A stretch of 63,503 nucleotides of DNA from an uncultured virus (IMG/VR IMGVR_UViG_3300020187_000012) (taxonomy: Duplodnaviria > Heunggongvirae > Uroviricota > Caudoviricetes): the IMG/VR virus record IMGVR_UViG_3300020187_000012, positions 62,001 to 125,503 of that record. One strand, written 5' to 3'. Positions 1,901 through 62,276 of the stretch are shown here, in pieces. Both the position numbers and the translations under genes were made by a program. The notes below the pieces were generated by a model. It had not been told where the DNA came from. It was given only the letters and a program-made list of their open reading frames with translations, and did not search any database. Every line of letters begins with the position of its first letter. The stretch's first letter is position 1.

Positions 1901-3730
1901 ATGAAAAAGATTGAATCATTTAAAAGTTTTTCTCAATTACAAAATGAAATCAGAGAAGAGGCTAGATTAAAAGAAGTTGCATCTAAAAGAGACGCTACAG
2001 TTTCTGAGTTTAACGCTCTTTTACAAAAGTACAATGCGGCATCAGTTGCAGACTTAAACGAAGAAGATAGAGACGCATTCATGGCTGAACTTACCAAAGA
2101 AGGTAATGCTTTCGGTGCAGCAAGAGCGGAAGCTATTGCTAAAGGTGAAGAAGAGTTTAAGGTTGGCGACGAAGAAATGCCGGTTAAAAATGTAGATAAA
2201 GAAGACGAAGAAAACGCTGAAGAGTTTGTTAAAGAGTCAACATTTGAATCAATAGTTACTGAAGGCAAGCACGACGAGATGCTAGATAAAGTTGCAGATG
2301 CTGTAAAAAATGCATCAAACTTTATGAACGTTGGTATTGCACTTAAAGATGCAGGTATCAAGTACGATTTTTCAACAGGCATGATGCCAATCTATAGGTT
2401 GAAAAAATACCCTATCGCTATTGTAAACAAAAAGTATGTTGACAAAGGTGACAGAGAAGTTGGCGATATCGCGATCGGTGTAATGGAATCACTTACTAAA
2501 TCGCTAATCACTGAAGCACTGGATGCACGTTCTCAAAAAGACGCGGTTAGAGGTTTAGCAGCTATTAATAAATTTATGACAGCTCACCCTGCATTTGCAA
2601 GTGGTAATGCAGTAGCTGACCAAACAATCGGTTGGTTATTAAAAGAGGCCCTTAAAGCCGCGATGATTGACGCTAACTTCCACAGAGAAGCTAATCAAGC
2701 TGCAAAAGCAATTAACTTTGCAAACTTTCAAGCACCAACTATCTTTGTTAAAGAAATGGGTGGTATGCCAATCCAGATTAGCAAGAAGCTGATGATGGAA
2801 AAAGTATATGAATTAGGTGCTGAAATCGCAAGAGGTGTTAAATACAATGGTTACGCTATTATTGAAGCTGTTGCACTTTACATGGAGTCTAGATTTAAAA
2901 AGAATTCATCTGCATCAAATCTAAGAGATGCACTTATTAAATTTATGGGTGAAGCTGTAGAAGCTAATAATCTAGAGCAAAGAATCAATGAAGGTTCAGC
3001 GTTTAATTCGGCAAGACTAAAAGCTATTGCTGACGATAAAGATGAATTTGAATTTGATGGTAAAACTTATCCAGTAAAATCTGTTGATAAGGAAGATGAA
3101 GAACTTGCTGATGATTTAGTAGGTGAAAGTAACAAAACTATAGATGCTAGTACATTCGGCGACGACAAATTACGTTATAATGATCAATTTAGAGGTGCTA
3201 CTAGCCTTGCTAAAACATTAGCAAGTGAATTAGGATTTGATCCAAACAAACCTTGGACTGAAGGTATTGGTTTTGATGATAAATCAATGTATGCTATTGG
3301 TGACAAAGAAGGAACTATTTCAAATAAAGCACTAACAGGTAAATATACATATGCTGATCTTTTAGCAATGGCTAAAGATTTTTTAGGAATCAATGAATCA
3401 GAAGATAAAGAAGATGCTGATGATGTAGTCGATGAGGCTAGATACGATGATATAAAACTTAAAGAATTTGCAGAATTTATCAAAAAAGCTGAAGGTAAAA
3501 GGGTTATGCTAACAACAACTGAATTTGATGGTACATCTAAGGTTGAGGGTAGGCTTCAAAAAAGTTCATCAGGTTATCATAAAATTGATTACATGAGCTT
3601 TGATTTTAAAGATGAAATGAATACTATCAAAAAGGGTGACGGCATGATTATGGGTGTTAGGTCTGGTGAATTCCTTAAGTACAATATCGGTGGTAAAAAC
3701 GGTTCTCAATTTTTAATCGAGGTACTATAA
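1901..3730 (+). CDS. Putative capsid-internal modular protein (polyprotein-like)
   Basis: N-terminal KKIESFKSF motif; repeated ES-x-x-x-E(A/G) linkers; duplicated AF..AR..AIA module. Confidence 0.6.
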   Translation: MKKIESFKSFSQLQNEIREEARLKEVASKRDATVSEFNALLQKYNAASVADLNEEDRDAFMAELTKEGNAFGAARAEAIAKGEEEFKVGDEEMPVKNVDKEDEENAEEFVKESTFESIVTEGKHDEMLDKVADAVKNASNFMNVGIALKDAGIKYDFSTGMMPIYRLKKYPIAIVNKKYVDKGDREVGDIAIGVMESLTKSLITEALDARSQKDAVRGLAAINKFMTAHPAFASGNAVADQTIGWLLKEALKAAMIDANFHREANQAAKAINFANFQAPTIFVKEMGGMPIQISKKLMMEKVYELGAEIARGVKYNGYAIIEAVALYMESRFKKNSSASNLRDALIKFMGEAVEANNLEQRINEGSAFNSARLKAIADDKDEFEFDGKTYPVKSVDKEDEELADDLVGESNKTIDASTFGDDKLRYNDQFRGATSLAKTLASELGFDPNKPWTEGIGFDDKSMYAIGDKEGTISNKALTGKYTYADLLAMAKDFLGINESEDKEDADDVVDEARYDDIKLKEFAEFIKKAEGKRVMLTTTEFDGTSKVEGRLQKSSSGYHKIDYMSFDFKDEMNTIKKGDGMIMGVRSGEFLKYNIGGKNGSQFLIEVL

Positions 3731-3760
3731 AAAAGTTTTAAAAAAGTTTGACATATATTT

Positions 3761-3789
3761 TTTTATGTCATTCTTTTTTTGTATATTTA
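3761..3789 (+). promoter_or_regulatory. Putative early promoter (T-rich TGTC-N12-TATATT)
   Basis: Same motif and spacing at three sites in the window. Confidence 0.55.
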
Positions 3790-3793
3790 CAGT

Positions 3794-4096
3794 ATGAAAC
3801 ATATAAAGCTATTTGAAGCCTTCTTATCTGAAGGTGTATTTAACACATATAATGAACTTGTAGGATACGAGTACAGGGAGTTTGTAGACGCTTTTAAGAA
3901 GCTTGACAAAGATAATGTAGTTACATACGATAAGAAAGAAGATGTTGAGTACGGTCATAAGAAAGGCTCTAAGGAAGCACTTTGGAAGTACTTTAAAGAT
4001 GCTGGTAAAATCTACCATTCAGAAAAAGACAAAGATGTATTAGGTTTGATTAACGCATTTGATATGGTTAAAAGAAACCACCCTTGGTCAAAATAA
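3794..4096 (+). CDS. Small putative capsid-internal protein
   Basis: ATG at 3794 gives MKHIKLFEAFLSE, a capsid-targeting-like N-terminus. Confidence 0.65.
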   Translation: MKHIKLFEAFLSEGVFNTYNELVGYEYREFVDAFKKLDKDNVVTYDKKEDVEYGHKKGSKEALWKYFKDAGKIYHSEKDKDVLGLINAFDMVKRNHPWSK

Positions 4097-4108
4097 TAAA
4101 TTAACGAA

Positions 4109-4963
4109 ATGAAAAAAGTAAGATTATTTGAAAGCTTCATTGGTGAAGCATCTCGTGGTAAAATCCACAAGGCAGTTAAAGCTGGTGATTATCCAGCAAC
4201 TATTGTTGTTATCGAAGATGGTGATGTAGTTCACCAAGAAACTGTTAATACACCTGAAGCTGTACCTGCATCATTTAATGTTCTTCAAAAAGAATATCCA
4301 AAGGCTAAACTTCACGTTGAAGATAAAGGTGGTCAAACACTTTTTGTTGAAGGTCTAGAAGTTAATGAATCGTATTCCCTACAACATGGCGGCGGTGAAT
4401 TCAAGCAAATGGACAGAAGAGTGAACGATGCTGATAAAATTGGAGTAGGAAATGCACTTGCTAAAATATGGAACTCTTTAGGTGTTGCAGATGGTGATTT
4501 TGACCATGAACAAGCTTGGGCATATGTAGTTTCTTTTATGGACGGTTCTTCTAAATTTCGTAGATTGCTAGAATCATTTAATTCAACTGACGATTCTGAA
4601 GTTAATGAATCTAATATAATGAACTCTTACTATTTTACTAGCCCTGCTGAATTCGGTCAATTCTCATCAGACGCTCCGGCTAAAGATGAAACTAAATATT
4701 TAGTGATGGCTACGAACAAAGCAGACTTTAATGGTCAAACTATTAGATTAGAAGGAGCTATTAGAATGGGGTCTTCAACTAGTAAAAGTATTATTGGTGT
4801 TTATGATGATGAGCAGTCTGCAAGAGACGCTTATAAAGCTGCAATGAAAAAACCAGAAGGAACTATGGTTTCTTTTACAATGGGAACAGTTGTTGGTGAA
4901 ACTAAATTCAGATCTCAATATACTGAAATCGAAGGGTATTTAGCAAAAGTTAAAGTAAAATAA
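4109..4963 (+). CDS. Putative capsid-internal modular protein
   Basis: MKKVRLFESFIGE N-terminus; internal EVNES linkers twice. Confidence 0.6.
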   Translation: MKKVRLFESFIGEASRGKIHKAVKAGDYPATIVVIEDGDVVHQETVNTPEAVPASFNVLQKEYPKAKLHVEDKGGQTLFVEGLEVNESYSLQHGGGEFKQMDRRVNDADKIGVGNALAKIWNSLGVADGDFDHEQAWAYVVSFMDGSSKFRRLLESFNSTDDSEVNESNIMNSYYFTSPAEFGQFSSDAPAKDETKYLVMATNKADFNGQTIRLEGAIRMGSSTSKSIIGVYDDEQSARDAYKAAMKKPEGTMVSFTMGTVVGETKFRSQYTEIEGYLAKVKVK

Positions 4964-4964
4964 C

Positions 4965-6251
4965 ATGAAACTACTCCATACATATAAAGAGTTCTTATTT
5001 GAAAAGACACAAAACCTATTTGAAGGTGAACTTATTATGGAAGGTGGCGCAGCAGGTCATATGATGCACCCATTTGATGATAAGGAACTTACATTTGATG
5101 ACTTTAGAAAGTTTATCGAAGCAGGGCTTCAAGGTGAAATGACTTTTGATGAAGAGCCAACGGAAAAGACTGACGGTCAAAATGTATTTGCTACAGTTAA
5201 GAATGGCGAAGTTCTTTTTGCTAGAAATAAAGGACAGTTAATGGCACCTTTAAGTTTAGCTGGTATTACTAAGATGTTCAAGGACCATGGTTCTGAACTA
5301 GTTAGAGATACATTTACATTTGCAGCTAGAGACTTAACATCTTCATTATCAAAGTTAAGTGCTGATGATCAAATGAAGTACTTTAACGACGGTAAAAACT
5401 TTATGAATATGGAGCTTATCTATTCACAAAACCCTAACGTTATTAATTACGATAGAGACGTTATTCAATTCCACGGTATTAAAGAAACTGATGGTGAAGG
5501 TAACATTACAGGTGATATGGGTGCAAGGTCGGCTAAAGACATTGCAAAGTTACTAGACGCTGTTAATGCAAGAATGGGTAAAGTATTTAATATTATACCA
5601 CCGCAAGTACTTAAGCTACAGAAAGATGTAGACTTTGAAGCTAAGAAGCCTTATTTTATGAAGAAGGTTGATGCACTTCAAAAGAAGTACAAGCTAGCTG
5701 GTCATGATGAAGTTTCAAGATACCACGAAATGTGGTGGAGAGAAGAGATTGAAAAAACATTCTCGGGATTAACACAAGATGTTATAGAAGGTCTGCTACA
5801 AAGATGGGCATATGACAACAAATCAGCGCTACCATTTACTAAATTAAAAAAGTCAATAGATGCAAAGCAAATGCAGGCTATTAAAGACTACGATAAAATT
5901 TCAGGTGCTAAGTATAAAGAAAACATTAGACCGTTTGAAGACCTATTCTTAGAATTAGGTTCTGTTATATTAAAGAATGCTTCTAACTTTGTTGCTGCTT
6001 CTCCAGATGCTGAAATGCAAAGACTACATAAGCAGATTAGAACTGAAGCTGATAAAATCAGAAAAGGTGATAATGTTGTACAGATTGAAAAGGTAGAAGC
6101 TGAGCTAGAGCGTTTAAATAGAATCGGTGGTGTTGAGTCAATCATACCGACTGAAGGTTTAGTGTTCAAGTATAATGGTAAAATATATAAACTAACGGGT
6201 ACTTTTGCTGCAATTAATCAGCTAATGGGTATCATTAAATATGGTAGATAA
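4965..6251 (+). CDS. RNA-ligase-like nucleotidyltransferase-fold protein (DUF6267-like), putatively virion-packaged
   Basis: EKTDGQN (KxDG motif I), EGLVF (motif IV), YKLTG (motif V); N-terminal HTYKEFLFE. Confidence 0.6.
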   Translation: MKLLHTYKEFLFEKTQNLFEGELIMEGGAAGHMMHPFDDKELTFDDFRKFIEAGLQGEMTFDEEPTEKTDGQNVFATVKNGEVLFARNKGQLMAPLSLAGITKMFKDHGSELVRDTFTFAARDLTSSLSKLSADDQMKYFNDGKNFMNMELIYSQNPNVINYDRDVIQFHGIKETDGEGNITGDMGARSAKDIAKLLDAVNARMGKVFNIIPPQVLKLQKDVDFEAKKPYFMKKVDALQKKYKLAGHDEVSRYHEMWWREEIEKTFSGLTQDVIEGLLQRWAYDNKSALPFTKLKKSIDAKQMQAIKDYDKISGAKYKENIRPFEDLFLELGSVILKNASNFVAASPDAEMQRLHKQIRTEADKIRKGDNVVQIEKVEAELERLNRIGGVESIIPTEGLVFKYNGKIYKLTGTFAAINQLMGIIKYGR

Positions 6252-6253
6252 TT

Positions 6254-6517
6254 ATGAAACACATTAAACTTTACGAACAATTCTTAAATGAATCAAGCAT
6301 ATCTAAAGATGGCTATGCTTTGAACCGCTTAGCAGATGATCAAGTAGGCGGTGTTCCAGCTACAGAGTTTCAAGAAGAACATAATTTAGATTTAGATGCC
6401 CTTAAAAGAGCAATTACACATACTAAAGAAATTACTAGGTATGAGTTAAGAGACATTATTAAAGGAACAGCCCCTAAATCAAAAATTAAAAAGTTCTTAA
6501 AAGAATTTTCAAAATAA
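6254..6517 (+). CDS. Small putative capsid-internal protein
   Basis: MKHIKLYEQFLNES N-terminus. Confidence 0.65.
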   Translation: MKHIKLYEQFLNESSISKDGYALNRLADDQVGGVPATEFQEEHNLDLDALKRAITHTKEITRYELRDIIKGTAPKSKIKKFLKEFSK

Positions 6518-6522
6518 ATAAT

Positions 6523-8361
6523 ATGGCACTTCAAAAGTTAAGAGATTATTTTAAAGAAACACCAAGAGAACAGTTTATGCAACTATTAAACCAAAAGGTT
6601 CATGTTGTAGAAAAACTAGCGGCTTCAGCATTTCATGTAAAGTCTGGTGATTTAAACAATAATTATTATAAATCAGGACAAACTCAACCTATTGATATTA
6701 TTGATAGAACGATTGTAGGTTTTTACGAACCTGCAATTTTGCATTTTAAAGGTTTGTCTAATGAAATTAAAGAAGAGATGCCAAAAGATTGGAAGTTTGG
6801 TTTTGATTATTTAATTGATGGTGAAACACCCAACTTTGAATATTCGCTACTTCCAAAAAACAATTTAGTGCTTACACATATTCAAGTGCTAAATCCACTA
6901 ACAGAAAATGTTAAGAAAGTTATTAGAGATACTAAAGTACTTAATAAGTGGGCTGATAAACTAGAGGTTCAAAGACCCCCAATTGTATTTGAAGGTCAAT
7001 TAAGATTTGATCAAAAAGAATCTTTAATTAAACTTCTTGAAATGACAGACCGCGAATTTACAACAACATATGAGTCTCGTTCATTTACAAAAGATTTATT
7101 TAACATATTTGATAAAAACGTTAGAAACTCAACACTTCAAGAAGGTTTAGATACCGATATTGACGGTCTTATAATTTCTTTTGTAGATGGTAAAAAAATG
7201 ACGCCATTTAAAATTGAAGATTTTAGAAGAGTTAATGAATCAAATACAGAAAGAAAGTCATCTGATATTTACCAGATTACAATTGTTGATTTAATTGAGT
7301 ATTTATCAAATTATGATTTTAAAAAGCACAGTTTAATTAAAGAGAAAAAAGACCTTAGATTTTTAGAGCTTATGTCTGAAGTATTTAATTCTTATATTAA
7401 AGAACACGCTACTAAATTTATTGGGGTTAACTTTGAAACTGCTGATTTTGCAAAAAAAGATGCGTTTAAGTTAAATACTGAATTTATTGAAAATCAACAA
7501 ACTCTTAAACTTATCGATAATAAAATTTTAAGTGAACTTTTTAAAATTACATTAAGCTCATTTAGAAGAGAAAGAACAAAAACTACAGATATTTTATCTG
7601 AAGATATGGTTAATCAAATGAATGAGATTGTTAAATCTATTGACGACCACGTATCTGCAAAAATAGAAGAAGGTGATGTGTTAGATTTTAATACTTATAA
7701 AAAGATGGATACAATTAATTCATCAATGAATGAAGCACTTAAAGTAGATTATCCAGAACATGGTAATAAACTTGTTAATATGTTTGTTGGTAGATTTCAA
7801 CCGTTTACATTAGGTCATGCTAAAGTTGTTAAAGCAATTCATCAACAAAACGGATATCCGGTTGTAATACTATTAGTTAAGGCTAAGAAGAAAAAGAAGG
7901 AAGATGCATTTAAGCGCCCTTACGATGAGGACACACAAATGGAAATGCTTAATAAACTTAAGAAAGAACTTCCAATTGAAGATGTATTTATTATACCAAC
8001 AGGTGGTATTGATACAATGTTCAATGCAATGAGACCTAAGTATGAACCAGTTTTATGGGGAACGGGTAGTGATAGAATGAAAACATATGGATTCCAGGTT
8101 AATAAAGAACCTTATAGAGAAGATTTAGGCGTTAGAGATGACTTTAAACTTTTTGAAATTCCAAGAACTGGTAATAATATTTCAGCTACTCAAGTTAGGA
8201 ATGCCATGTTAGACGGTGACGTGAAACTATTTAAAAAATTAACGCCAAAGGGTATTCATGGAATGTATGACGAATTAAAGTCTAGACTTGAAGCTTCTAT
8301 GGCAGTTGCTGAGAATGTTGAAACTATTTTAACATTTGAACAGTTTATTTCTAATATATAA
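6523..8361 (+). CDS. Fusion of degenerate ligase-like domain and C-terminal HIGH-family nucleotidyltransferase (cytidylyltransferase/NMNAT-like)
   Basis: VGRFQPFTLGH and ISATQVR motifs; N-terminal VEKLAAS and DGLIIS resemble decayed ligase motifs I and IV. Confidence 0.7.
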   Translation: MALQKLRDYFKETPREQFMQLLNQKVHVVEKLAASAFHVKSGDLNNNYYKSGQTQPIDIIDRTIVGFYEPAILHFKGLSNEIKEEMPKDWKFGFDYLIDGETPNFEYSLLPKNNLVLTHIQVLNPLTENVKKVIRDTKVLNKWADKLEVQRPPIVFEGQLRFDQKESLIKLLEMTDREFTTTYESRSFTKDLFNIFDKNVRNSTLQEGLDTDIDGLIISFVDGKKMTPFKIEDFRRVNESNTERKSSDIYQITIVDLIEYLSNYDFKKHSLIKEKKDLRFLELMSEVFNSYIKEHATKFIGVNFETADFAKKDAFKLNTEFIENQQTLKLIDNKILSELFKITLSSFRRERTKTTDILSEDMVNQMNEIVKSIDDHVSAKIEEGDVLDFNTYKKMDTINSSMNEALKVDYPEHGNKLVNMFVGRFQPFTLGHAKVVKAIHQQNGYPVVILLVKAKKKKKEDAFKRPYDEDTQMEMLNKLKKELPIEDVFIIPTGGIDTMFNAMRPKYEPVLWGTGSDRMKTYGFQVNKEPYREDLGVRDDFKLFEIPRTGNNISATQVRNAMLDGDVKLFKKLTPKGIHGMYDELKSRLEASMAVAENVETILTFEQFISNI

Positions 8362-8381
8362 TAAAATACAATTATAGCAAA

Positions 8382-11300
8382 ATGTTTGAATCTTTTAACA
8401 ATTTTATAAACAACAGCATGCCTTTAAACGAAGGTATGTTTTCATTTAAAACTTTAGGTGATAATAAAGCAATTAGCGCAATGTCAGGTGCTGATATTTA
8501 CATGTTTGACGATAAAGGAAACAAATGGCATGAAGAAAACTATGAAGGTTACGGCGTCTTTGGTGGTAAAGACTTTTTTGAGTTAATGGCTGAAATGAAT
8601 GATGAAACAGGTAGAGATATAGGTATTGACCTTTATTTCGGTAATGATAAAAAAGTTTTATACCCAGCATTAACAAGAGACAAAAATTTTAACTGGAAAA
8701 GACACAAGTTTACTACTAAGATAAAGTCAGACCCTAAGCAAGGTGCTTTCTCTGAATCAGTTATTAATGAAGCTAAGGCTCAGTACATGATAGGTGATAA
8801 AGAAGCAAGTAGAGAAGATGTATTATCTTATATGTTTAGCAATCCAAAAAAACCATTAGGTAATACTAGTACGGGTAAATTCCCAAAATGGGTACAGTCA
8901 AACAGCACACCTGACGGTGATACAATCACATGGTCTACTATTAAAAAGGATATGAAGACTCTTGAAAAAGAATATGGAAAAGGCAATGTGGTAGTTAGTG
9001 GTAACACAAACGGTGGCGATCCAGTGGTAGAAATATATATGAAATCACAAAATGAATCTGTAGTTACTGAAGCAAATTATTCTTTATCTAAATTAGAAGA
9101 TATGGGATTTAAAGCTGGTGAAGATTATTTTGAAAAAGTAAAAGGTTTATTAAAAAATGGTCCAGATTTAAAGGCTTATAAAAAGGGATTCACACAAGGT
9201 TTTGTAGATAATGCAGCCGCTTATGGTGTTAAAGAATCTGTAGTTACTGAAGCTAAAGATGATTTTATGGCAAAACATTCCGGAACTAATATTACCCTAA
9301 AGAAAGGTTATAAACACCACACTGAAGATGAATTAACAGATTTATACAATAAGATTGGCGAATTAGTTAAAGATGATTTAAAGGTAAAGGATGTTACTAT
9401 TGTTTTTGAATCAGTAGTTAATGAAGCTAAGTCTATTGCTAAAATTCAAAAAGAATGGGGTAAAGTTACAGCTATGATGAAAGATACAGTCGCATCATAT
9501 AAAGAAGCAGAAGGTCAGGAAAAAGAAGACCTAGTAGACCAACTTAAAGTTTTAACAGTTTCAAAGAAAAAGCTTGAAGCGGAATTAGACGCAGCAGTAG
9601 GTCTTAAAGATATGGATGTTGAATTAGATGAAGCTACAATGAAAAATATAAATCATATATTAAACGAAAACGAGCAAATAGATGAAGCTATTAAAGTTGG
9701 TGACCTTAAAGTAGGTAGAGGCTTTAAATTAGGTGATGATGTATTTAGAATTATCAAACTAGAAAAAGATAAAAAATTTGGACTAATTGCAGATACTGAG
9801 CGTATTTGTTCAATAACAGGTACAAAATACAAATATTTAGATACAGCTAAAGAATTAGTTGATTTCTTTAACGAAGAAGGTGTTGTTGCTGAAGGTATGG
9901 TATTTGAAGCTTTTGATAGCATCGATGAAGAGCTTAACGAAAGAGTAGTTACAATCAAAAGAAGATATACTGAAAACTATCCAGCAGTTACAGTTGGTAA
10001 ATCAGCAAGAATTAGAAACAAGATGCTAGAAGCAATCGCGGACGGCAAAATCACACAAGAAGAGTTTAACACTATCTTAAAAGAAATGTCTAACCACCCA
10101 GGTAAGTGGTCAAGAAGAAACGCTAAGTACTTTAACGTATCTGAAGATGGTGTTTCACTTTCTAAAGCAGGTTCAAGAATCCTTCAAAAGATTGCAATCA
10201 ATGAGAACTCTGTAAACGAAGCAAGACAATCATGGATCGTTTATACAGGTGATGTTGCTAAGAAATTCTATTCAGAGCACACTAACAAAAAATCAGCTGA
10301 AAAGATGATTGACATGATTATTAAAAAATTCGATACAGTAGGTATGATGACAAAAGAACTATGGGAAAAAGAAAGAGCTGAAGGTTTCGTTACTGAAGAA
10401 GCAACACCTTTCGTATATGAATCATTTGCTGCATTTGAATCTACTAACCTTAACGAAGCTTCATTTGTTGTATGGTATGAGGATAAAGAGGGTAAACACC
10501 TTTTAGGTACGTTCCACAACAAAAGAGCTGCGGACAAGTATAAGTCAGAAGAAGAAGATGAAGTACTAAACACAGTAGGTGTTGAATCAATTGGCACAAT
10601 GTCTAAAACTATGTGGGATAAAAAAGAAGCTCCATATATTAAAGAATCTCAAGTTAATACTGATAACACTGAATTAGTTACTGAAGCATTCAAATCGTCT
10701 AAGCTTAGAAACCTCTTAACAATGGGTGGCGCTGATGGTATGAAGCTTAAAGGCTTATCAAAAGCATTTTATGGTTTAACTAAATACAAATTAGATGAGC
10801 TACCAGACGCAGCACTGAGGGATGTTGACCCACAGACAGCATACAAGTCGTACCAAAAAGACAAAGAATTTGCGGTATTTTATATTGTTGACAATGAAAA
10901 GAATAATCCATTTTCTGATGATAGAGACTGGGGTGGTAAAATCAATCCGGGGATTATTGCAATTACAAGAGCTAAAGAATTCTTAGGAGATAATAGAAGA
11001 GTCGGCACTGATAGGAAATTGTCTAATAATGCACAGCCAGCTGGTGGTGATAAAAGATATTCAGGTTGGGGTGCTTCAGGTATTTATAATATAAAAAGAG
11101 CAGCTGAAGTTGCGGATAGAGCTATTGTTGTATGGCTTAATAATGATGTATTCAAGTCTACTGACTTAACAAAAGAAAGAACAGAAGCTAAGTCTGGTGC
11201 AATCGCATTCAAGTCTGATGCAGATTTTAAGAAAGCTAACCTAGCAAGGTATAGAGAAATTCTAGCTACTAAAGCATCTAAACTGCCTTTAGATAAAATG

Positions 11301-11609
11301 GTTGAATCGGCTATTAACGAACTTTCTGACCAAATCAAAAAGGGTCTATCGGCTGGCGAGGTTGGTAGATATGGTGATATTCTTATTGGTAAAAACAAAA
11401 AGGGTAGTGAAGTTAAAATGAGAGATGCATCTAATCATATGTCTAACATTTTAGATAATTATGGTAGATACTGTTCTTATGTTAATGAAGCTGAAGCTGA
11501 AAAAGATTCAGGTTACTCTAGTGGTTTTTACGAAAAAGAATCTAAGAAATACGCTAAAGAAGTTTCTGACCAAATCAAGAAAATCAAAGGAATGGATTAC
11601 GCTTGGTAA
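8382..11609 (+). CDS. Large modular putative capsid-internal polyprotein
   Basis: Short domains separated by ESVINEA/ESVVTEA/ESVVNEA/NSVNEA/ELVTEA linkers. Confidence 0.6.
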   Translation: MFESFNNFINNSMPLNEGMFSFKTLGDNKAISAMSGADIYMFDDKGNKWHEENYEGYGVFGGKDFFELMAEMNDETGRDIGIDLYFGNDKKVLYPALTRDKNFNWKRHKFTTKIKSDPKQGAFSESVINEAKAQYMIGDKEASREDVLSYMFSNPKKPLGNTSTGKFPKWVQSNSTPDGDTITWSTIKKDMKTLEKEYGKGNVVVSGNTNGGDPVVEIYMKSQNESVVTEANYSLSKLEDMGFKAGEDYFEKVKGLLKNGPDLKAYKKGFTQGFVDNAAAYGVKESVVTEAKDDFMAKHSGTNITLKKGYKHHTEDELTDLYNKIGELVKDDLKVKDVTIVFESVVNEAKSIAKIQKEWGKVTAMMKDTVASYKEAEGQEKEDLVDQLKVLTVSKKKLEAELDAAVGLKDMDVELDEATMKNINHILNENEQIDEAIKVGDLKVGRGFKLGDDVFRIIKLEKDKKFGLIADTERICSITGTKYKYLDTAKELVDFFNEEGVVAEGMVFEAFDSIDEELNERVVTIKRRYTENYPAVTVGKSARIRNKMLEAIADGKITQEEFNTILKEMSNHPGKWSRRNAKYFNVSEDGVSLSKAGSRILQKIAINENSVNEARQSWIVYTGDVAKKFYSEHTNKKSAEKMIDMIIKKFDTVGMMTKELWEKERAEGFVTEEATPFVYESFAAFESTNLNEASFVVWYEDKEGKHLLGTFHNKRAADKYKSEEEDEVLNTVGVESIGTMSKTMWDKKEAPYIKESQVNTDNTELVTEAFKSSKLRNLLTMGGADGMKLKGLSKAFYGLTKYKLDELPDAALRDVDPQTAYKSYQKDKEFAVFYIVDNEKNNPFSDDRDWGGKINPGIIAITRAKEFLGDNRRVGTDRKLSNNAQPAGGDKRYSGWGASGIYNIKRAAEVADRAIVVWLNNDVFKSTDLTKERTEAKSGAIAFKSDADFKKANLARYREILATKASKLPLDKMVESAINELSDQIKKGLSAGEVGRYGDILIGKNKKGSEVKMRDASNHMSNILDNYGRYCSYVNEAEAEKDSGYSSGFYEKESKKYAKEVSDQIKKIKGMDYAW
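8754..9427 (+). repeat. Dispersed 20-bp in-frame direct repeats GAATC(T/A)GT(A/T)(G/A)TTA(C/A)TGAAGC
   Basis: Copies at 8754, 9054, 9234 and 9408; those at 9054 and 9234 are identical (gaatctgtagttactgaagc). Confidence 0.8.
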
Positions 11610-11624
11610 TCAAATAAATTAATT

Positions 11625-12308
11625 ATGCCTAGTCAAAGTAAATCACAACAACGTTTAATGGGAGTTGCATACGCAGTTAAGTCTGGTGATATGCCACTTT
11701 CTGATGTTGATGCTTCATATAGAGATAAAGTTAAAGAGCTTGTTGACGGAATGTCACTTAAAGACCTTAAAGACTTTGCTGAAACGAAACACGACGATGT
11801 ACCAGAAGAAGTTACAGAAGGTGTAATGAAAATTGATTTACGCAAAATACTAACTAGAATCTCAGGTGCCATCGGATACAAGCACGACCCAAAAATGAGA
11901 CAAGAACTTCTTGCAGCATTTGAAGAGGACCTTAGACAGATCATGACAAAATACGATTATGTGGTTGAAGACAATATTGAAGAAGACTTATCAGCTGTTA
12001 CCCCAAGTATGTTGGGCGGTATGGGCGATGTTAGTTTACCCAATGGAGATACCCCCGGTTCAGGTGATGTTCCAGCAGGTTCAGGTAAAGCTAAAAAGAA
12101 AAAGAAGCTTAAAAACATTGAAGATTTTTTACAAGAACAAAAACAATTAAAATCATTTAAACCTGAACAGGGTAAAGGTGAAGCACTTGGTGAAGGTGAA
12201 TATGAAAACGGTTCTCCAGTTTCCCCAGAACAAGAAATGGAACACCGTGCTAACGCACATAGAGTTGCAAAAAATGTAATATCATTTGACGCATTTTCAA
12301 AAAGATAA
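11625..12308 (+). CDS. DUF3008-like N-terminal domain protein
   Basis: MPSQSKSQQRLMGVAYAVKSG...MSLKDLKDFAETKH pattern; C-terminal VISFDAF motif. Confidence 0.65.
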   Translation: MPSQSKSQQRLMGVAYAVKSGDMPLSDVDASYRDKVKELVDGMSLKDLKDFAETKHDDVPEEVTEGVMKIDLRKILTRISGAIGYKHDPKMRQELLAAFEEDLRQIMTKYDYVVEDNIEEDLSAVTPSMLGGMGDVSLPNGDTPGSGDVPAGSGKAKKKKKLKNIEDFLQEQKQLKSFKPEQGKGEALGEGEYENGSPVSPEQEMEHRANAHRVAKNVISFDAFSKR

Positions 12309-14413: not shown

Positions 14414-14881
14414 ATGGCAAATATAGATAATCAATGTAAAGACCTAGAAGTAACAGACTTCTATGGCGAATCAAAAACGCATTTGGCAGACATCATGTCT
14501 CACCAAAAAGAAATGCAAGAAAAAACTTATGGTGTTAACTTTGAAAACATGACAATCCGCGAAGTCATGAATTTCTGGCACATGAACACACACGCAGTCA
14601 TTGATGAAATTCACGAGATGACAGATGCATTGGGTGGTATTAATGATGGTTCCGGTAATGCAGTTTGGAAGCCTTGGAAGAAAGACCACACGATATATGA
14701 TACCATGAAGGTTTCTGATTTATCAGAAGGCGACCTTAAGGAGTTGTACATGGAATGGGTTGATATCTTACACTTCTTTATGAACTACGCTGCGTCAATC
14801 GGACTCGACGCACAAACGGCATATAATTACTACTTTGCAAAAGCTGAGGAGAATAAGAACCGTCAAAAGCGTGGATACTAA
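14414..14881 (+). CDS. All-alpha NTP pyrophosphatase (dimeric dUTPase/dCTPase-like)
   Basis: DEIHEMTDAL, WKPWK, EWVDILHF motifs. Confidence 0.85.
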   Translation: MANIDNQCKDLEVTDFYGESKTHLADIMSHQKEMQEKTYGVNFENMTIREVMNFWHMNTHAVIDEIHEMTDALGGINDGSGNAVWKPWKKDHTIYDTMKVSDLSEGDLKELYMEWVDILHFFMNYAASIGLDAQTAYNYYFAKAEENKNRQKRGY

Positions 14882-34059: not shown

Positions 34060-36207
34060 ATGAATTATAATAATCTATTAATACTTGAAAGATCATCAAG
34101 TACTCTAATCGCTGACGAAAAGTCTGGCAATTATGTACTAGAGGGTATCTTCGGTGAGATCGATAAGAAAAACAAAAACAATCGTATCTATACTGAAGGT
34201 GAATATGTACCTCAAATTGAAGCTCTTCAAGAAAAAATTAAGTCATCAAAACTTCTAGGTGAATTAGATCACCCTGCTAAGTTTGATGTATCATTAAAGA
34301 ATGTATCGCACATTATCGAAGAATTATATTACGATAGCGATCTTAAACAAGTTAAGGGTAAAATCAGATTACTAGATACAGATGCTGGCCGTCAGGCTAA
34401 AGCACTTGTAGATGCTGGTGTACCTTTACAAATATCTTCTAGAGCTGCCGGTGAAGTTAGTGAGGGCGGTCAAGTTAAAATTAAACAACTATTCACTTAT
34501 GATTTAGTTGCCGACCCGGGTTTTGCAAATGCTGAGCTTAATAGAGTTAACGAATCTTTTGGATTTGAGTCAGACAGTAACATTCAAATCTTTGAGATGA
34601 TGCCTGAAACTCTGGTTACAGAAACTGAAAATATCAAAACTGAAAATAATACAAATAATACAACATCAATCATGGAAAATCAAGCTAGATTTGTAAGTGT
34701 TGAAGACTTTAACAAGTACTCTACGTACTTAGCTGAAGAAATCAAAGCACTTAAAGAATCTCTTGCAGGTACTTCTACTGAAGATATTGAAGAGAAAATG
34801 GAAGCGCTTACAAATTATGTAGAGCACGTTGCTGAAAAAGCAGACCAGGGCATTCAATACACTGAGTACATTGCAGAGAACCTAGATAAGTCAATCGACT
34901 ATTCTAACTATGTTGCTGAAAAATTAGATAATTCTATTTCTTATTCAGAGCACGTTGCAGAAGCTGCGTCAAACGTTAAGGAATACGCAAATTATTTAGC
35001 AGAAGCAATGAACGAAGGTGCCGCTGATTACGAAAACGTAACAAAGTACTTAAACTATTTAAAAGAAAATGTAGAGTCTGTATCTGAGTATGCTGACTAC
35101 ATTGCTGAAACAATCAACACTAACCTAATTGTTGAAACTGAAGTTGCAAACGACGGTGACGATGTTACAGGCACTGAAGCTGACGACCTTAAGTCTGATG
35201 CTAAAGAGATTAACAATGATGTTAATGCACCCGAAGACAAGTCTGCAGAATTAGAAGCTGACTTAGCTAAAGATGCTGCACCATCTAAAGTAGTTGTTGA
35301 AGCTGATATTAAAGCAAACGACGGTGACGATGTTACAGGCGTTGAAGCAGATGACCTTAAGTCTGATGCTAAAGAGATTAACAATGATGTTAATGCACCC
35401 GAAGACAAGTCTGCAGAATTAGAAGCTGACTTAGCTAAAGATGCTGCGCCATCTAAAGAAGTAGTTGAATCTGAAGAAGCTGAAGAAGAAGTTGCTGAAG
35501 AAGAAGCTGAAGAAGAAACTGAAGAAGTAGTTGAATCTGAAGTTGCTGAAGAAGAAGCTGAAGAAGAAACTGAAGAAGTAGTTGAATCTGAAGAAGCTGA
35601 AGAAGAAGCAATTGAAGAATCATGTGGTACATGTGGTGCAAACCCATGTGAGTGTGCTTCTGAATCGGTTGATGCTGTAGAAGCATACAAAAACGAAATT
35701 TCTGAAAAACTTTCTGCTTTAATTAACAAAGCAACTGTTAAAGAAAATAATAACCCACACTTCTTCAAACTAGTATCTGAAGCAACTCAAGAAAAGTATA
35801 ACGCTTTAGAAGAAGCTGACAAGACTAAAGTACTTTCTTCAATTGAAGGTAGGGGTTACTTAACTGAAGGTCAAATCAATACTTTAATGGAATCTGCTTT
35901 AGTAGAGGTTGCTGGTCAAACAACACCTTATTTTGTTGAAGCAATGCCATCTGAGTACAGAGAGACTTGGACTAAACTATCAGAGGCTAAGAAATCAGTG
36001 ATTTCCGCTCAAGCTAGAATGGTTAAGCTAACGACACCATACCAAGTTAAAAACTTCTGGGACACAAGAGACCTAAGAGAAACATCAGCGGTAATGGAAA
36101 GAGTTGAAATGATTACTGAAGCTAAGAAAATCGAAGCTCCTAAATCAACGCTAACGTATAACACTGATGGTATTGGTGAGGCTTTAGCAAAAAGATTTAA
36201 AAAATAA
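34060..36207 (+). CDS. gp21-like prohead protease fused to gp22-like scaffold
   Basis: NKNNRIY, GELDHP, ISSRAAG, YDLVADP, followed by a long acidic coiled-coil region. Confidence 0.9.
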   Translation: MNYNNLLILERSSSTLIADEKSGNYVLEGIFGEIDKKNKNNRIYTEGEYVPQIEALQEKIKSSKLLGELDHPAKFDVSLKNVSHIIEELYYDSDLKQVKGKIRLLDTDAGRQAKALVDAGVPLQISSRAAGEVSEGGQVKIKQLFTYDLVADPGFANAELNRVNESFGFESDSNIQIFEMMPETLVTETENIKTENNTNNTTSIMENQARFVSVEDFNKYSTYLAEEIKALKESLAGTSTEDIEEKMEALTNYVEHVAEKADQGIQYTEYIAENLDKSIDYSNYVAEKLDNSISYSEHVAEAASNVKEYANYLAEAMNEGAADYENVTKYLNYLKENVESVSEYADYIAETINTNLIVETEVANDGDDVTGTEADDLKSDAKEINNDVNAPEDKSAELEADLAKDAAPSKVVVEADIKANDGDDVTGVEADDLKSDAKEINNDVNAPEDKSAELEADLAKDAAPSKEVVESEEAEEEVAEEEAEEETEEVVESEVAEEEAEEETEEVVESEEAEEEAIEESCGTCGANPCECASESVDAVEAYKNEISEKLSALINKATVKENNNPHFFKLVSEATQEKYNALEEADKTKVLSSIEGRGYLTEGQINTLMESALVEVAGQTTPYFVEAMPSEYRETWTKLSEAKKSVISAQARMVKLTTPYQVKNFWDTRDLRETSAVMERVEMITEAKKIEAPKSTLTYNTDGIGEALAKRFKK
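35146..35610 (+). repeat. 168-bp tandem duplication followed by EEEAEEETEEVVES repeats
   Basis: gcaaacgacggtgacgatgttacaggc at 35146 and 35314; Glu-rich repeats to ~35610. Confidence 0.9.
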
Positions 36208-37961: not shown

Positions 37962-39212
37962 ATGAAAATTAAGTTAAACGAAGCTATTAAATCGTTCGAT
38001 ATGTTTATCAACGAAAGAGAAGTGGCGGCTGAGGTTGAAACTGTAGCGGATGCATCACCTGAAGTTGATTCAAGAAGTGCAATGATCGCTGATGTTGATA
38101 CTATTATTACATCATTAGAAACTTTAGCAGGCTCTGTTGCGGAAATGGTTGAAGAAATGAATAACTTTGATAATGAAGTTAGTGAAGAACTAGAAGCTGT
38201 TAATGAGGGTCCTGTTCAATGGGTTAAAGGTAAAATGCTGCAGGGTAAGCAAAAGAAGATTACAACAATGAAGCTTAAATCTTCAGATATGGCTTCTGCC
38301 GCTGCTGGTCTTCAAGGTGCAGAGAACAGAGATAAGAAATCTTATATCATCGATAAGAAAAAACAACTTGATGATAGTATTAAGCAAATTCAGTCGATGG
38401 TTGATGACAAAGCTAAAGATATTGGTGGCCCAGCTCTTAGAATTGTCAACAAAGAAAAAATTAAAGGACAAATGGCTGTTATCAAATCTCAAATTGGTAA
38501 CGTAGACCCTAAAAAAGCTAAAGGGATGAAAGATAGACTTGCTGATTTACAAGGTAAGTATAAAGAAGAAGAGGCTGCAATTGCACAATTAAAAGATAAA
38601 GCAGATGCTAATGCTCAAGATGTAAATGATGACGATGACACTAATGCTCTTAAAGATGAAATCAAAAAACTACAAGGCGAAAAGAAAACTATTGACAAGT
38701 CTACGACTAAAGGTAAGCTTGAAGATGTTATGATGGATATAAAAATCTATGGCCTTAAAATGAAAGTTGCAGTTGAGGATGGTGATGCAAATACAGACCC
38801 TGGTGAATTTGATGATAAAATAGCAAAGCTTAAAACTAAAGCTGCTGAATTACAGGCTGAATTAGGAGGTTATAATGAAGCATTTGAGTTAGACGGTTCT
38901 GGTAGAATTACTTTAAGTAATAATCTTACAATTGAAAAAATTGAAGAAAACGAAATCACAGAAGAAACTAGCGAAGAAACTGCAAAAGATATAACATCTA
39001 CAGTTTCTAAATTATCTTTAAGGGCAAATGCAGTAGGTCTAAATGAATTAGCATCAGAAATTGATTCTAAATTAGACTGGCAAATTGCTGAAGGTACAGG
39101 TTTAAGACTTAAATATGAATCTGCTATTAAGAAAGCAGAGTCTGATAAAATTCTTAGCGAGTCAAGGTACTTTGATAATAATGTAAAAGACGCGTTTAGA
39201 AGACTTCTATAA
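37962..39212 (+). CDS. Coiled-coil putative head-internal protein
   Basis: Late promoter; IKSFDMFINE motif near the N-terminus. Confidence 0.6.
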   Translation: MKIKLNEAIKSFDMFINEREVAAEVETVADASPEVDSRSAMIADVDTIITSLETLAGSVAEMVEEMNNFDNEVSEELEAVNEGPVQWVKGKMLQGKQKKITTMKLKSSDMASAAAGLQGAENRDKKSYIIDKKKQLDDSIKQIQSMVDDKAKDIGGPALRIVNKEKIKGQMAVIKSQIGNVDPKKAKGMKDRLADLQGKYKEEEAAIAQLKDKADANAQDVNDDDDTNALKDEIKKLQGEKKTIDKSTTKGKLEDVMMDIKIYGLKMKVAVEDGDANTDPGEFDDKIAKLKTKAAELQAELGGYNEAFELDGSGRITLSNNLTIEKIEENEITEETSEETAKDITSTVSKLSLRANAVGLNELASEIDSKLDWQIAEGTGLRLKYESAIKKAESDKILSESRYFDNNVKDAFRRLL

Positions 39213-62268: not shown

Positions 62269-62276
62269 GATATATA
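62269..62276 (+). promoter_or_regulatory. Putative late promoter GATATATA
   Basis: Recurrent octamer. Confidence 0.7.

What the first reader, a model, noticed from the sequence alone, without database searches (positions are those of the whole stretch)
8382..11609. Putative protease-processed polyprotein built from in-frame cassettes bounded by 20-bp repeats
Seen: the 1075-aa ORF is a chain of unrelated ~55-120-aa modules, punctuated by ESVINEA, ESVVTEA (twice), ESVVNEA, NSVNEA, NLNEA and ELVTEA. The linkers are conserved at DNA level: 9054 and 9234 are identical 20-mers, with near-copies at 8754, 9408 and in another gene at 2246. Established: T4 prohead protease gp21 cuts after Glu in (I/L/V)-x-E contexts, and a gp21 homologue is encoded at 34060. 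Inference: the protein is packaged once and cut during head maturation into many small effectors that are injected with the DNA. The repeats would double as recombination points for gaining, losing or shuffling effector cassettes, giving an in-frame cassette array of virion-delivered (possibly anti-defence) proteins.
Basis: partly seen in the sequence, partly recalled or inferred. Interest (0 to 1): 0.9.

Follow-up and report, generated by a model that had tools for sequence, protein, structure and literature searches.

The report
Shuffled cargo polyprotein of T4-like phage
One long gene of an uncultured T4-like phage strings about ten unrelated small proteins together with a short peptide that looks like the cut site of the phage's head protease, and related phages swap the pieces at that peptide, although no cutting or packaging has been measured.

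Summary
ORF 8382-11609 (1075 aa) holds 8 of the window's 13 [ILV][NT]EA sites, and the 20-mers at 9054 and 9234 are identical.

Shown here:
- About ten mutually unrelated modules sit between the linkers.
- Relatives gain, lose, permute and exchange modules exactly at the linkers. One relative deletes B-C-D from linker 1 to linker 4. Another shares module B at 98% identity while its other shared parts are 42-47%. The family has 21 architectures.
- The linker DNA occurs in at least 124 IMG/VR stretches, always in frame.

Inferred, not measured:
- The linkers are cut by the S77 prohead protease (34060).
- The chain is loaded into the prohead by a T4-type capsid-targeting leader.

Support for the inference:
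- The same [VIL]-x-E|A ends the N-terminal leaders of stand-alone module genes.
- Neighbouring genes carry leaders with the T4 pattern (aromatic P7 and P4, aliphatic P3, Glu P1).
- The protease keeps an invariant VNE|S at the end of its own fold.

Injection and anti-defence roles are untested, and no module has a known fold. Residues 521-613 and 769-1075 form a conserved core.

I found no description in print. This scan has noted the same architecture on other phage DNA. I rate it a new variant of the T4 internal-protein system.

The parts
8353..8360 (+). AATATATA box 29 nt upstream of the start codon; candidate late-type promoter element
   Evidence: RATATATA gives 24 matches against 13.1 expected, 23 of them on the + strand. 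13 of the 14 GATATATA copies lie 12-92 nt upstream of ORF starts, mostly structural genes, and the portal gene has AATATATA at -27. Promoter function is inferred.
8382..11609 (+). Polyprotein ORF, 1075 aa, 121 kDa
8382..8432 (+). N-terminal leader, residues 1-17 (MFESFNNFINNSMPLNE|G), CTS-like, ends in L-N-E
   Evidence: The same leader heads 10 of the closest homologues. Related leaders (MFESF..F.NE|A) directly precede single modules in other proteins. Targeting function is inferred.
8433..8771 (+). Module A (residues 18-130), variable cassette
   Evidence: Present in 13 of 119 homologues, at internal positions in P0011, P0012 and P0013, and stand-alone in P0174.
8754..8774 (+). Linker 1, ESVINE|A
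8772..9071 (+). Module B (residues 131-230), variable cassette
   Evidence: 98% identical copy in P0045, bounded by linkers, while its other shared parts are 42-47% identical.
9054..9074 (+). Linker 2, ESVVTE|A; its first 20 nt are identical to linker 3
9072..9251 (+). Module C (residues 231-290), variable cassette
9234..9254 (+). Linker 3, ESVVTE|A
9252..9425 (+). Module D (residues 291-348), the most promiscuous cassette
   Evidence: Found in 57 of 120 shorter proteins in many contexts, always flanked by ..E[AG] upstream and ES.V.E downstream.
9408..9428 (+). Linker 4, ESVVNE|A
   Evidence: In L003 this linker (23 of 23 nt identical) joins module A directly to E1.
9426..9632 (+). Module E1 (residues 349-417), helical hairpin, pLDDT about 90
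9687..9908 (+). Module E2 (residues 436-509), small beta-rich domain, pLDDT about 90
9942..10220 (+). Module G (residues 521-613), conserved core, basic (pI 9.0)
   Evidence: Present in 119 of 119 homologues, with 19 invariant residues.
10206..10223 (+). Linker 5, NSVNE|A
   Evidence: lies in low-confidence segment 606-614
10221..10457 (+). Module H (residues 614-692)
10449..10463 (+). Linker 6, NLNE|A, preceded by a leader-like YESFAAFES
10458..10685 (+). Module I (residues 693-768)
10671..10688 (+). Linker 7, ELVTE|A
10686..11606 (+). Module J (residues 769-1075), conserved 34-kDa basic C-terminal domain (pI 9.3), unknown fold
   Evidence: Present in 114 of 119 homologues. Model pLDDT 78.5. 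No convincing fold match.
34060..36207 (+). Prohead protease (S77, gp21-like) fused to a scaffold-like region; the presumed processing enzyme
34546..34554 (+). VNE (residues 163-165, followed by Ser) at the end of the protease fold; candidate autoprocessing site with the same tripeptide as the linkers
   Evidence: Across 42 aligned proteases, position 163 is V/I/L/M in 41, N164 is present in 41 and E165 in 42.
1901..3730 (+). Second multi-module gene of the same cassette pool (ESIVTE|G at 2246-2265)
   Evidence: Homologues with the same N-terminus (P0123, P0128 and others) carry modules B, C and D.
3779..6517 (+). Four neighbouring genes with T4-CTS-like N-terminal leaders (3779, 4109, 4965, 6254)
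   Evidence: They match [FYW]xx[FYW][ILVM]xE within the first 12 residues. Homologues of 4109 carry modules D, E1 and I.
37962..39212 (+). Gene after the major capsid gene, starting MKIKLNE|A..FDMFINE|R; leader-bearing head-module gene

Best explanation
The gene encodes a precursor chain of head-packaged proteins. It is the T4 internal-protein system rebuilt as one in-frame cassette array.

Proposed steps:
1. The gene is expressed together with the head genes (inferred).
2. The N-terminal leader, of the type of the T4 capsid targeting sequence, takes the whole 121-kDa chain into the scaffolding core of the prohead (inferred).
3. The S77 prohead protease encoded at 34060 cuts after Glu in [V/I/L]-[N/T]-E|[A/G] at seven linkers, and probably at three or four weaker L/I/V-x-E|A boundaries. 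This releases about eight cassettes of 6-13 kDa plus the conserved 12-kDa G and 34-kDa J modules in equal numbers (inferred).
4. The pieces stay with the DNA and leave with it at infection, as T4 internal proteins do (inferred, weakest step).
5. The 21-nt coding sequence of the linker is the joint at which relatives delete, insert, permute and exchange cassettes while keeping the frame (shown by comparison; the recombination mechanism itself is inferred).
For: Cassettes and joints (shown):
- Homology to 119 homologues steps at the linkers.
- In L003, module A runs into a linker identical in 23 of 23 nt to window linker 4 and then into E1, so the B-C-D indel is bounded by linkers.
- P0045 shares module B at 98% over q128-231, but its other shared parts are 42-47% identical.
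- Module A sits at internal positions in P0011, P0012 and P0013.
- There are 21 architectures among the 119 homologues.
- Of 16,957 homology breakpoints in 240 proteins, 18.2% lie within 5 aa of a strict motif against 5.3% for random positions. For the loose motif the figures are 42.7% against 13.9%.
- In each context listed, modules B, C, D and E1 are nearly always flanked by ..E[AG] upstream and ES.V.E downstream.
- The linker DNA occurs in at least 124 IMG/VR stretches. 128 of 144 matches are in open frames, and 20 of 20 spacings are multiples of 3.
- Synonymous sites in the linker are more uniform than flanking codon usage, for example GTA 77% against 42%.

Folds:
- Confident domains at 350-407, 435-504, 540-605, 615-672, 695-730 and 770-1075 are separated by low-confidence segments that hold the linkers.
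- The modules are unrelated to each other.

Protease site:
- gp21 cuts after Glu in L/I-X-E, first seen at a Glu-Ala bond (PMC9026906, passages).
- The window encodes an S77 protease.
- That protease has an invariant [VILM]-N-E|S exactly where its fold ends.

Leader:
- The T4 CTS is MKTYQEFIAE, cut after the last Glu (PMC8442874, passage). Residues 4 and 7 serve targeting, and 8 and 10 serve processing (PMC9026906).
- The same pattern [FYW]xx[FYW][ILVM]xE occurs 22 times in the 125-kb record. 8 of those begin within the first 12 residues of ORFs, 5 of them in the window: four just upstream of this gene plus 37962.
- 44 of 166 non-redundant family N-termini have the pattern, against 4 of 166 in a control stretch of the same proteins.
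- Stand-alone module genes have a leader ending at the same E|A junction as in the polyprotein: P0045/P0122 with B, P0147 with E1, P0173 with D.

Timing: the gene has an AATATATA box at -29, like the portal gene at -27.
Against: - There is no measurement of cleavage, packaging or ejection for this protein or any relative, and no cultured phage carries the family.
- The polyprotein's own N-terminus does not meet the strict aromatic-P7/P4 pattern. It has F2, F5 and F8, and then PLNE17.
- Most cassettes are acidic or neutral (pI 4.8-6.6), whereas the T4 internal proteins are described as highly basic (PMC8442874 passage).
- P3 is mostly Val, while the published T4 rule is Leu/Ile.
- Residues 1-349 are modelled with low confidence throughout, so the claim that folds do not span the linkers is only weakly tested there.
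- The DNA-level uniformity of the linker could by itself explain its conservation without any protein-level role.
- TATAAATA, recalled by me as the T4 late-promoter box, is not enriched, and the RATATATA box is only a candidate promoter.
- The gene lies 22 kb from the head module.
Confidence: 0.58

Rival explanations
1. The protein works uncut, as a multi-domain beads-on-a-string (polyvalent-type) protein. The linkers are flexible or helical connectors. Their conservation is a by-product of being the DNA joints at which cassettes recombine.
For: - Linker synonymous sites are more uniform than codon usage predicts, and two linkers are identical 20-mers, which points to DNA-level homogenisation.
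- AF2 draws short low-confidence helices over linkers 1 and 3.
- Virion-packaged polyvalent proteins that stay uncut are known, for example the N4 virion RNA polymerase (PMC5512222, passages).
- There are no cleavage data.
Against: - P1 Glu and an aliphatic P3 are kept in very many contexts while the neighbouring positions vary.
- The same junction ends N-terminal leaders, where there is nothing to connect.
- The protease's own boundary has the same tripeptide.
- Module order is freely permuted, which fits independent products better than one machine.
Confidence: 0.2
2. The chain is cut by the prohead protease, but it is core or scaffold filler like T4 gp22, gp67 and gp68. The pieces are expelled or have only an assembly role, and are not effectors delivered to the host.
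For: - T4 core proteins are cut into multiple fragments that leave the head (PMC9026906, passage).
- Most cassettes are acidic.
- The scaffold region of 34060 carries six CTS-like YxxY[ILV]xE repeats.
Against: - The cassettes are compact folded domains (pLDDT about 85-94 for E1, E2 and H).
- They are hypervariable in presence. Modules B and D are found in only 3 and 1 of 119 near-length homologues yet recur in many shorter proteins. That is unlike a structural scaffold and like the variable T-even internal proteins (PMC3012670 and PMC2839356, passages).
Confidence: 0.12
3. The protein is not virion-associated. It is a cytoplasmic multi-module protein, or a polyprotein processed by another protease.
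For: - The gene lies among nucleotide-metabolism genes (cytidylyltransferase fusion, thymidylate synthase) rather than in the head module.
- No head-protein homology was found.
Against: - The leader type is shared with the gene next to the capsid gene.
- No other protease was seen among the 27 ORFs scanned.
- In T4 the internal-protein and alt genes also lie outside the head cluster (my recollection).
Confidence: 0.06

Closest known systems
Phage T4 internal proteins IPI, IPII, IPIII and Alt: capsid targeting sequence plus gp21 processing
   Same: - The phage is T4-like and has an S77 protease.
- Short N-terminal leaders have aromatic residues at P7 and P4, an aliphatic P3 and Glu at P1.
- The cut is predicted after Glu, before Ala or Gly.
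- The cargo is diverse and fast-changing, and lies outside the head gene cluster.
   Different: - In T4 each cargo is its own gene with one leader and one cut. Here about ten cargos are fused in frame behind one leader and separated by internal cut-site linkers.
- P3 is mostly Val.
- The cassettes are mostly acidic rather than basic.
- No experiment has been done.
PeSL-mediated modular shuffling, and the analogous elements at the T-even IP loci (Arbiol 2010; Comeau 2014; Repoila 1994 as cited there)
   Same: Short conserved boundary sequences flank small variable units. They are the points of insertion, deletion and exchange between related T4-like phages.
   Different: PeSLs are intergenic promoter/terminator cassettes that move whole genes. 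Here the boundary is a translated 21-nt peptide-coding sequence inside one ORF, so the exchanges must stay in frame, and they do (20 of 20 spacings).
Polyvalent proteins of phages and conjugative elements (Iyer, Burroughs, Anand, de Souza, Aravind 2017)
   Same: Many unrelated domains sit in one polypeptide. The proteins are thought to be packaged and delivered with the DNA. Mosaicism is extensive.
   Different: - Those proteins are built from recognisable conflict-related enzyme domains and often carry their own metallopeptidase. Here no domain matches any family.
- The joints here are one conserved protease-site-like peptide.
- Processing here would be by the prohead protease.
Processed inner-body and ejection proteins of giant phages (phiKZ gp175, SPN3US gp245 substrates)
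   Same: A gp21-related protease cuts many head proteins after Glu in a short motif. Paralogues have conserved N-termini reminiscent of the CTS, and propeptides contain multiple sites.
   Different: There the cuts remove long propeptides from single mature proteins. An array of independent swappable cassettes is not described in the passages I read.
Viral polyproteins (for example picornaviruses)
   Same: One ORF, with a viral protease recognising short linker motifs, would give several mature proteins in equal amounts.
   Different: This is a different virus realm and a different protease fold. Those products are fixed and essential, not a shuffled accessory set.

Membership tests
T4-type CTS-bearing head-packaged (internal) proteins | The phage encodes a gp21-type (S77) prohead protease and a T4-type head module | tested here: met
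   Peptidase_S77 E 9e-13, PHROG 207 E 5.5e-35, Portal_T4 and Gp23.
T4-type CTS-bearing head-packaged (internal) proteins | N-terminal leader of about 10-20 aa with the T4 pattern (aromatic P7 and P4, aliphatic P3, Glu P1) | tested here: inconclusive
   The polyprotein's own N-terminus (MFESFNNFINNSMPLNE|G) has three Phe residues at 3-residue spacing and an L-N-E site, but it does not fit the strict pattern. Four adjacent genes and many family members do fit it.
T4-type CTS-bearing head-packaged (internal) proteins | The leader is removed by the prohead protease after Glu | not testable with these tools
   Needs proteomics or an in vitro assay.
T4-type CTS-bearing head-packaged (internal) proteins | The protein is present in the mature head and ejected with the DNA | not testable with these tools
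   No cultured member exists.
Substrates of gp21-type proteases (L/I-X-E| rule) | Exposed sites with an aliphatic P3 and Glu at P1 | tested here: met
   Seven linkers have P3 = I, V, V, V, V, L, V and P1 = E. All lie in low-confidence inter-domain segments of the model. Val at P3 departs from the T4 rule but matches the protease's own VNE|S.
Polyvalent proteins (Iyer et al. 2017) | Two or more recognisable conflict-related effector domains in one chain, often with MuF, portal or an own peptidase domain | tested here: not met
   There is no Pfam or PHROG family on the protein or on 30 homologues, apart from DUF5661 in two of them.
PeSL regulatory cassettes | Intergenic promoter plus stem-loop terminator at the exchange points | tested here: not met
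   The exchange points lie inside an uninterrupted ORF and are translated.

The most novel reading that the evidence does not exclude
Uncultured aquatic T4-like phages have a widespread and so far undescribed cargo-cassette system. One seven-residue peptide acts as the cut site of the head protease, and its 21-nt coding DNA acts as the in-frame recombination joint. A phage can therefore mix and match virion-delivered proteins and load a whole set, in equal numbers, with a single targeting leader. That would be a protein-level counterpart of gene-cassette arrays.
Probability: 0.45. Interest if true: 0.8.

Novelty: new variant of a known kind. Interest (0 to 1): 0.62.

Why it matters
If the linkers are cut, this shows how large uncultured phages build and quickly re-assort a set of proteins delivered with their DNA. 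That is the class to which the first known phage anti-restriction protein (T4 IPI) belongs.

It would give hundreds of small orphan domains a testable role. It would give a simple sequence rule (leader plus linker) for finding virion cargo in metagenomes. It would also offer a natural design for loading several proteins into a capsid from one construct.

It is also a clear case of a short sequence under double selection, as a peptide and as a recombination joint.

Tried and rejected
Searches that gave no function:
- Pfam and PHROGs on the protein, and Pfam on 30 homologues: no family apart from DUF5661 in two proteins.
- PDB sequence profile search: only E 0.15.
- Foldseek PDB on the full model: nothing at E <= 0.001.
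- VIA-wide and BFVD on the C-terminal domain: only generic helical-bundle matches with Z below 10, under the helical baseline.
- VIA-wide on the full model: generic helical hairpins for E1 and a single MarR-like row for G (Z 8.0, rmsd 4.3, 80 aligned), at baseline level.
- ESM Atlas on G and J: no usable hit.

Searches for known or cultured relatives:
- tblastn against 50,697 phage records: no match.
- Cluster look-up: no cultured source.

Other tests:
- T4 late-promoter box TATAAATA (recalled from memory): 9 matches against 10.6 expected, and none upstream of the gene.
- RNA-ligase idea for ORF 4965 (it has a KTDG motif): no Pfam, PHROG or PDB sequence match.
- MCP propeptide: three conserved L/I-x-E sites fit the general rule but do not single out the [NT]E|A form.
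- The chance explanation is rejected.

Literature:
- 'prohead protease' + polyprotein + phage: 5 papers, none describing this.
- The motif strings ESVVTEA, ESVVNEA and SVVTEAK: 0 papers.
- Internal-protein, hyperplastic and CTS terms: only the gene-level shuffling papers.
- PMC10052503: none of my six search terms occurred in it.
Full report
**Context**

The window is the second half of a 125.5-kb IMG/VR virus record that CheckV rates 41% complete. It has about 33% G+C, and nearly all its genes are on one strand. It encodes a distant T4-type gene set:
- a gp20 portal,
- an S77 (gp21-like) prohead protease fused to a scaffold-like region,
- the gp23 capsid protein,
- gp15, gp17 and gp18,
- UvsW, UvsX, gp41-, gp44-, gp46- and gp47-like proteins,
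- a split family-B DNA polymerase.

The capsid protein's best matches among deposited phages are large uncultured phages and Lak phages, at 31-49% identity.

**Observation**

ORF 8382-11609 is real, at 1075 aa. It contains ESVINEA, ESVVTEA twice, ESVVNEA, NSVNEA, NLNEA and ELVTEA at the stated places. The 20-mers at 9054 and 9234 are identical, and near-copies lie at 8754, 9408 and 2246.

The enrichment is well beyond chance:
- 8 of the 13 [ILV][NT]EA sites in the window's 70 ORFs (19,691 aa) are in this ORF.
- Two ESVVTEA-coding 20-mers would be identical with probability 0.008 under the window's codon usage.
- The only other repeated 20-mers in the window are a tandem duplication in the scaffold gene.

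**Anatomy**

An AlphaFold2 model of the whole chain (48-row alignment, mean pLDDT 61.5) gives confident domains at 350-407, 435-504, 540-605, 615-672, 695-730 and 770-1075. Low-confidence segments separate them and contain the linkers.
- 7 of 9 strict sites fall in 10-residue blocks with pLDDT under 60. An eighth, at 613, lies in the under-50 segment 606-614.
- The site at 1036 lies inside a confident helix and is probably not a linker.
- Residues 1-349 are poorly modelled throughout, so that half of the test is weak.

The ten modules are unrelated to each other. The best pair, H against I, reaches only E 0.001.

If the chain is cut at the linkers and at the three or four extra L/I/V-x-E|A boundaries, the products would be:
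- about eight cassettes of 6-13 kDa (pI 4.8-6.6),
- module G (12 kDa, pI 9.0),
- module J (34 kDa, pI 9.3).

**Relatives**

The big protein collection holds 304 proteins of similar length at E <= 0.001, of which I used the 119 listed. All 119 share G and 114 share J. Module A occurs in 13, E1 in 28, E2 in 14, H in 22, I in 10, B in 3 and D in 1. There are 21 architectures.

A second search for shorter proteins gave 120 more. These carry single modules in many other contexts: D in 57, E1 in 43, A in 43, B in 23 and C in 19.

**Changes happen at the linkers**

- P0005 and P0006 join residues 1-133 directly to 343-1075.
- At DNA level, locus L003 follows the window through module A, then has a linker identical in 23 of 23 nt to window linker 4, then continues into E1.
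- P0011, P0012 and P0013 carry module A at internal positions.
- P0045 shares module B at 98% over q128-231, exactly linker to linker, while its other shared parts are 42-47% identical. That indicates recent cassette exchange.
- Over all 240 proteins, 18.2% of 16,957 internal homology breakpoints lie within 5 aa of a strict motif, against 5.3% of random positions. For the loose motif the figures are 42.7% and 13.9%. BLAST ends are imprecise and the proteins are related, so these percentages are only indicative.
- In each context listed, modules B, C, D and E1 are almost always preceded by ..ES[VI][VI][NT]E[AG] and followed by ES.V.E.
128 of the 144 matches lie in frames open over +/-40 codons, all 20 spacings within a locus are multiples of three, and many different sequences follow.
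- In 105 distinct contexts, the linker's synonymous positions are more uniform than the flanking codon usage: Ser TCA 70% against 49%, Val GTA 77% against 42%, Val GTT 82% against 48%, Thr ACT 78% against 45%. The contexts are not independent. This fits exchange or homogenisation of the linker DNA itself.

**Why the linker is probably a protease site**

- Published work states that gp21 cuts after Glu in L/I-X-E, first seen at a Glu-Ala bond. It also states that T4 internal proteins are loaded by a roughly 10-residue capsid targeting sequence, with residues 4 and 7 serving targeting and 8 and 10 serving processing (PMC9026906, passages).
- That sequence is printed as MKTYQEFIAE (PMC8442874, passage). 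This gives aromatic P7 and P4, aliphatic P3 and Glu P1.
- In the 125-kb record the pattern [FYW]xx[FYW][ILVM]xE occurs 22 times. Eight begin within the first 12 residues of ORFs, 5 of them in the window. Four of those are directly upstream of this gene (window 3779, 4109, 4965, 6254), and one is the gene after the capsid gene (37962). Six lie in the scaffold part of the protease fusion.
- Of 166 non-redundant family N-termini, 44 have the pattern in the first 30 residues, against 4 in residues 101-130 of the same proteins.
- Single modules occur behind such leaders with the junction at the same E|A as inside the polyprotein. Examples are MFESFNKFTGTINE|A before B in P0045 and P0122, MFESFEDFVNE|A before E1 in P0147, and ..FVNESKDTVNE|A before D in P0173. 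Some of these short proteins sit on short contigs and may be cut at their far end.
- A more distant locus, L004, shows the same organisation. It has five small genes with MK.[IV]KLFE.F..E-type leaders beside two chains of 657 and 716 aa with four and five strict sites.
- In an alignment of 42 proteases of this clade, the sequence [VILM]-N-E|S is essentially invariant exactly where the protease fold ends and conservation collapses: 41, 41 and 42 of 42 at the three positions. T4-type proteases are known to remove their own C-terminus (PMC9026906 and PMC5694885, passages), so this is the likely self-cut site. It has the same tripeptide as the linkers.
- The capsid protein keeps LYE44 in 46 of 46 non-redundant N-termini, directly before a hypervariable stretch, plus IIE19 and (in most) LINE7. 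This agrees with the general rule only.
- In 40 non-redundant relatives, the gene after the capsid gene starts with aromatic-rich leaders, and 15 of 40 have [ILVM]xE within the first 12 residues.

**Timing**

TATAAATA, which I recalled as the T4 late box, is not enriched. RATATATA is: 24 matches against 13.1 expected, with 1 of 100 shuffles reaching 24, and 23 of 24 on the coding strand. Thirteen of the 14 GATATATA copies lie 12-92 nt upstream of ORF starts, including gp15, the protease, the capsid gene, 37962 and the sheath; the 14th, at 62269, has no called ORF close downstream. AATATATA lies at -29 of this gene and -27 of the portal gene, and GATATATA lies 50 nt before cassette gene 1901. 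Co-expression with head genes is an inference from this.

**What remains unknown**

No module has a recognisable family or fold. Injection and anti-defence roles rest only on the T4 precedent that internal proteins are diverse defence-countering proteins sharing only the CTS (PMC3012670, passage). Most cassettes are acidic, unlike the basic T4 internal proteins. The docking test could not be run.

**Comparison with what is known**

- Gene-level shuffling of T-even internal-protein loci and of hyperplastic regions by short intergenic promoter/stem-loop elements is described. More than 30 IP variants are reported, and Repoila 1994 is cited there (PMC2839356 and PMC4122927, passages).
- Polyvalent packaged proteins are described (PMC5512222, passages).
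- Multi-site processing of giant-phage head proteins is described (PMC5694885, passages).
- An in-frame array whose translated joint is both the protease-site-like peptide and the exchange point was not found in print. The searches are those. Subscription journals are not covered, and I read no supplements.
- I read none of these papers in full. Mullaney and Black 1996, Repoila 1994 and Comeau and Krisch 2005 were not seen, only cited through the papers above.

**Earlier notes of this scan**

After I had fixed my reading, look-ups returned ten unchecked notes. Eight describe cassette chains with protease-site-like joints in other uncultured phages, one of them a virus of archaea and some with other linker peptides. 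Two describe islands of leader-tagged genes. None reports a measurement. They show that the scan has met this before on other DNA. They are not independent evidence.

**Verdict**

The cassette array and exchange at the linkers are shown. Protease processing and head loading are well-motivated inferences, and I put the whole mechanism at about 0.58. Delivery and function are open. I rate it a new variant of the T4 internal-protein/CTS system.

Noticed in passing
window 11625-12308 and 36351-37835: The ORF just downstream of the polyprotein (227 aa, N-terminal DUF3008) shares the motif GMG[DN]VSLPNG with the hypervariable N-terminal stretch of the major capsid protein (about residues 58-67).
   Followed up: no
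window 34060-36207: The scaffold-like part of the protease fusion holds six Y-x-x-Y-[ILV]-x-E repeats with the same pattern as the T4 CTS. It also has a 168-nt tandem duplication (about 35146-35400 repeated at +168).
   Followed up: partly
window, 24 sites, e.g. 28772, 34031, 36259, 37923, 48678: A (G/A)ATATATA box occurs almost only on the coding strand, 12-92 nt upstream of ORF starts, mostly structural genes. It is a candidate late-promoter element that replaces the T4 TATAAATA box, which is not enriched here.
   Followed up: partly
window 4965-6251: This 428-aa ORF has a CTS-like leader (MKLLHTYKEFLFE) and a KTDG motif reminiscent of nucleotidyl-transferase (ligase) motif I. It has no Pfam, PHROG or PDB sequence match. 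An earlier scan note on another genome mentions an RNA-ligase-like tagged enzyme.
   Followed up: partly
window 6523-8361: This 612-aa ORF sits inside the leader-gene cluster. It has an unknown roughly 400-aa N-terminal part fused to a cytidylyltransferase/NMNAT-like domain.
   Followed up: no
window 14881-16284 and 20596-21831: The family-B DNA polymerase is split into two ORFs about 4 kb apart, with ribonucleotide reductase genes between them.
   Followed up: no
window 1901-3730: This second multi-module gene contains an internal repeat of about 37 residues (around residues 67-103 and 365-401, both ending ..VDKEDEE). Its relatives carry modules B, C and D of the polyprotein.
   Followed up: partly
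L004 (IMG/VR contig of 148.8 kb), 3565-12073: A more distant phage has a cluster of five small genes with MK.[IV]KLFE.F..E-type leaders beside two multi-linker chains of 657 and 716 aa.
   Followed up: partly
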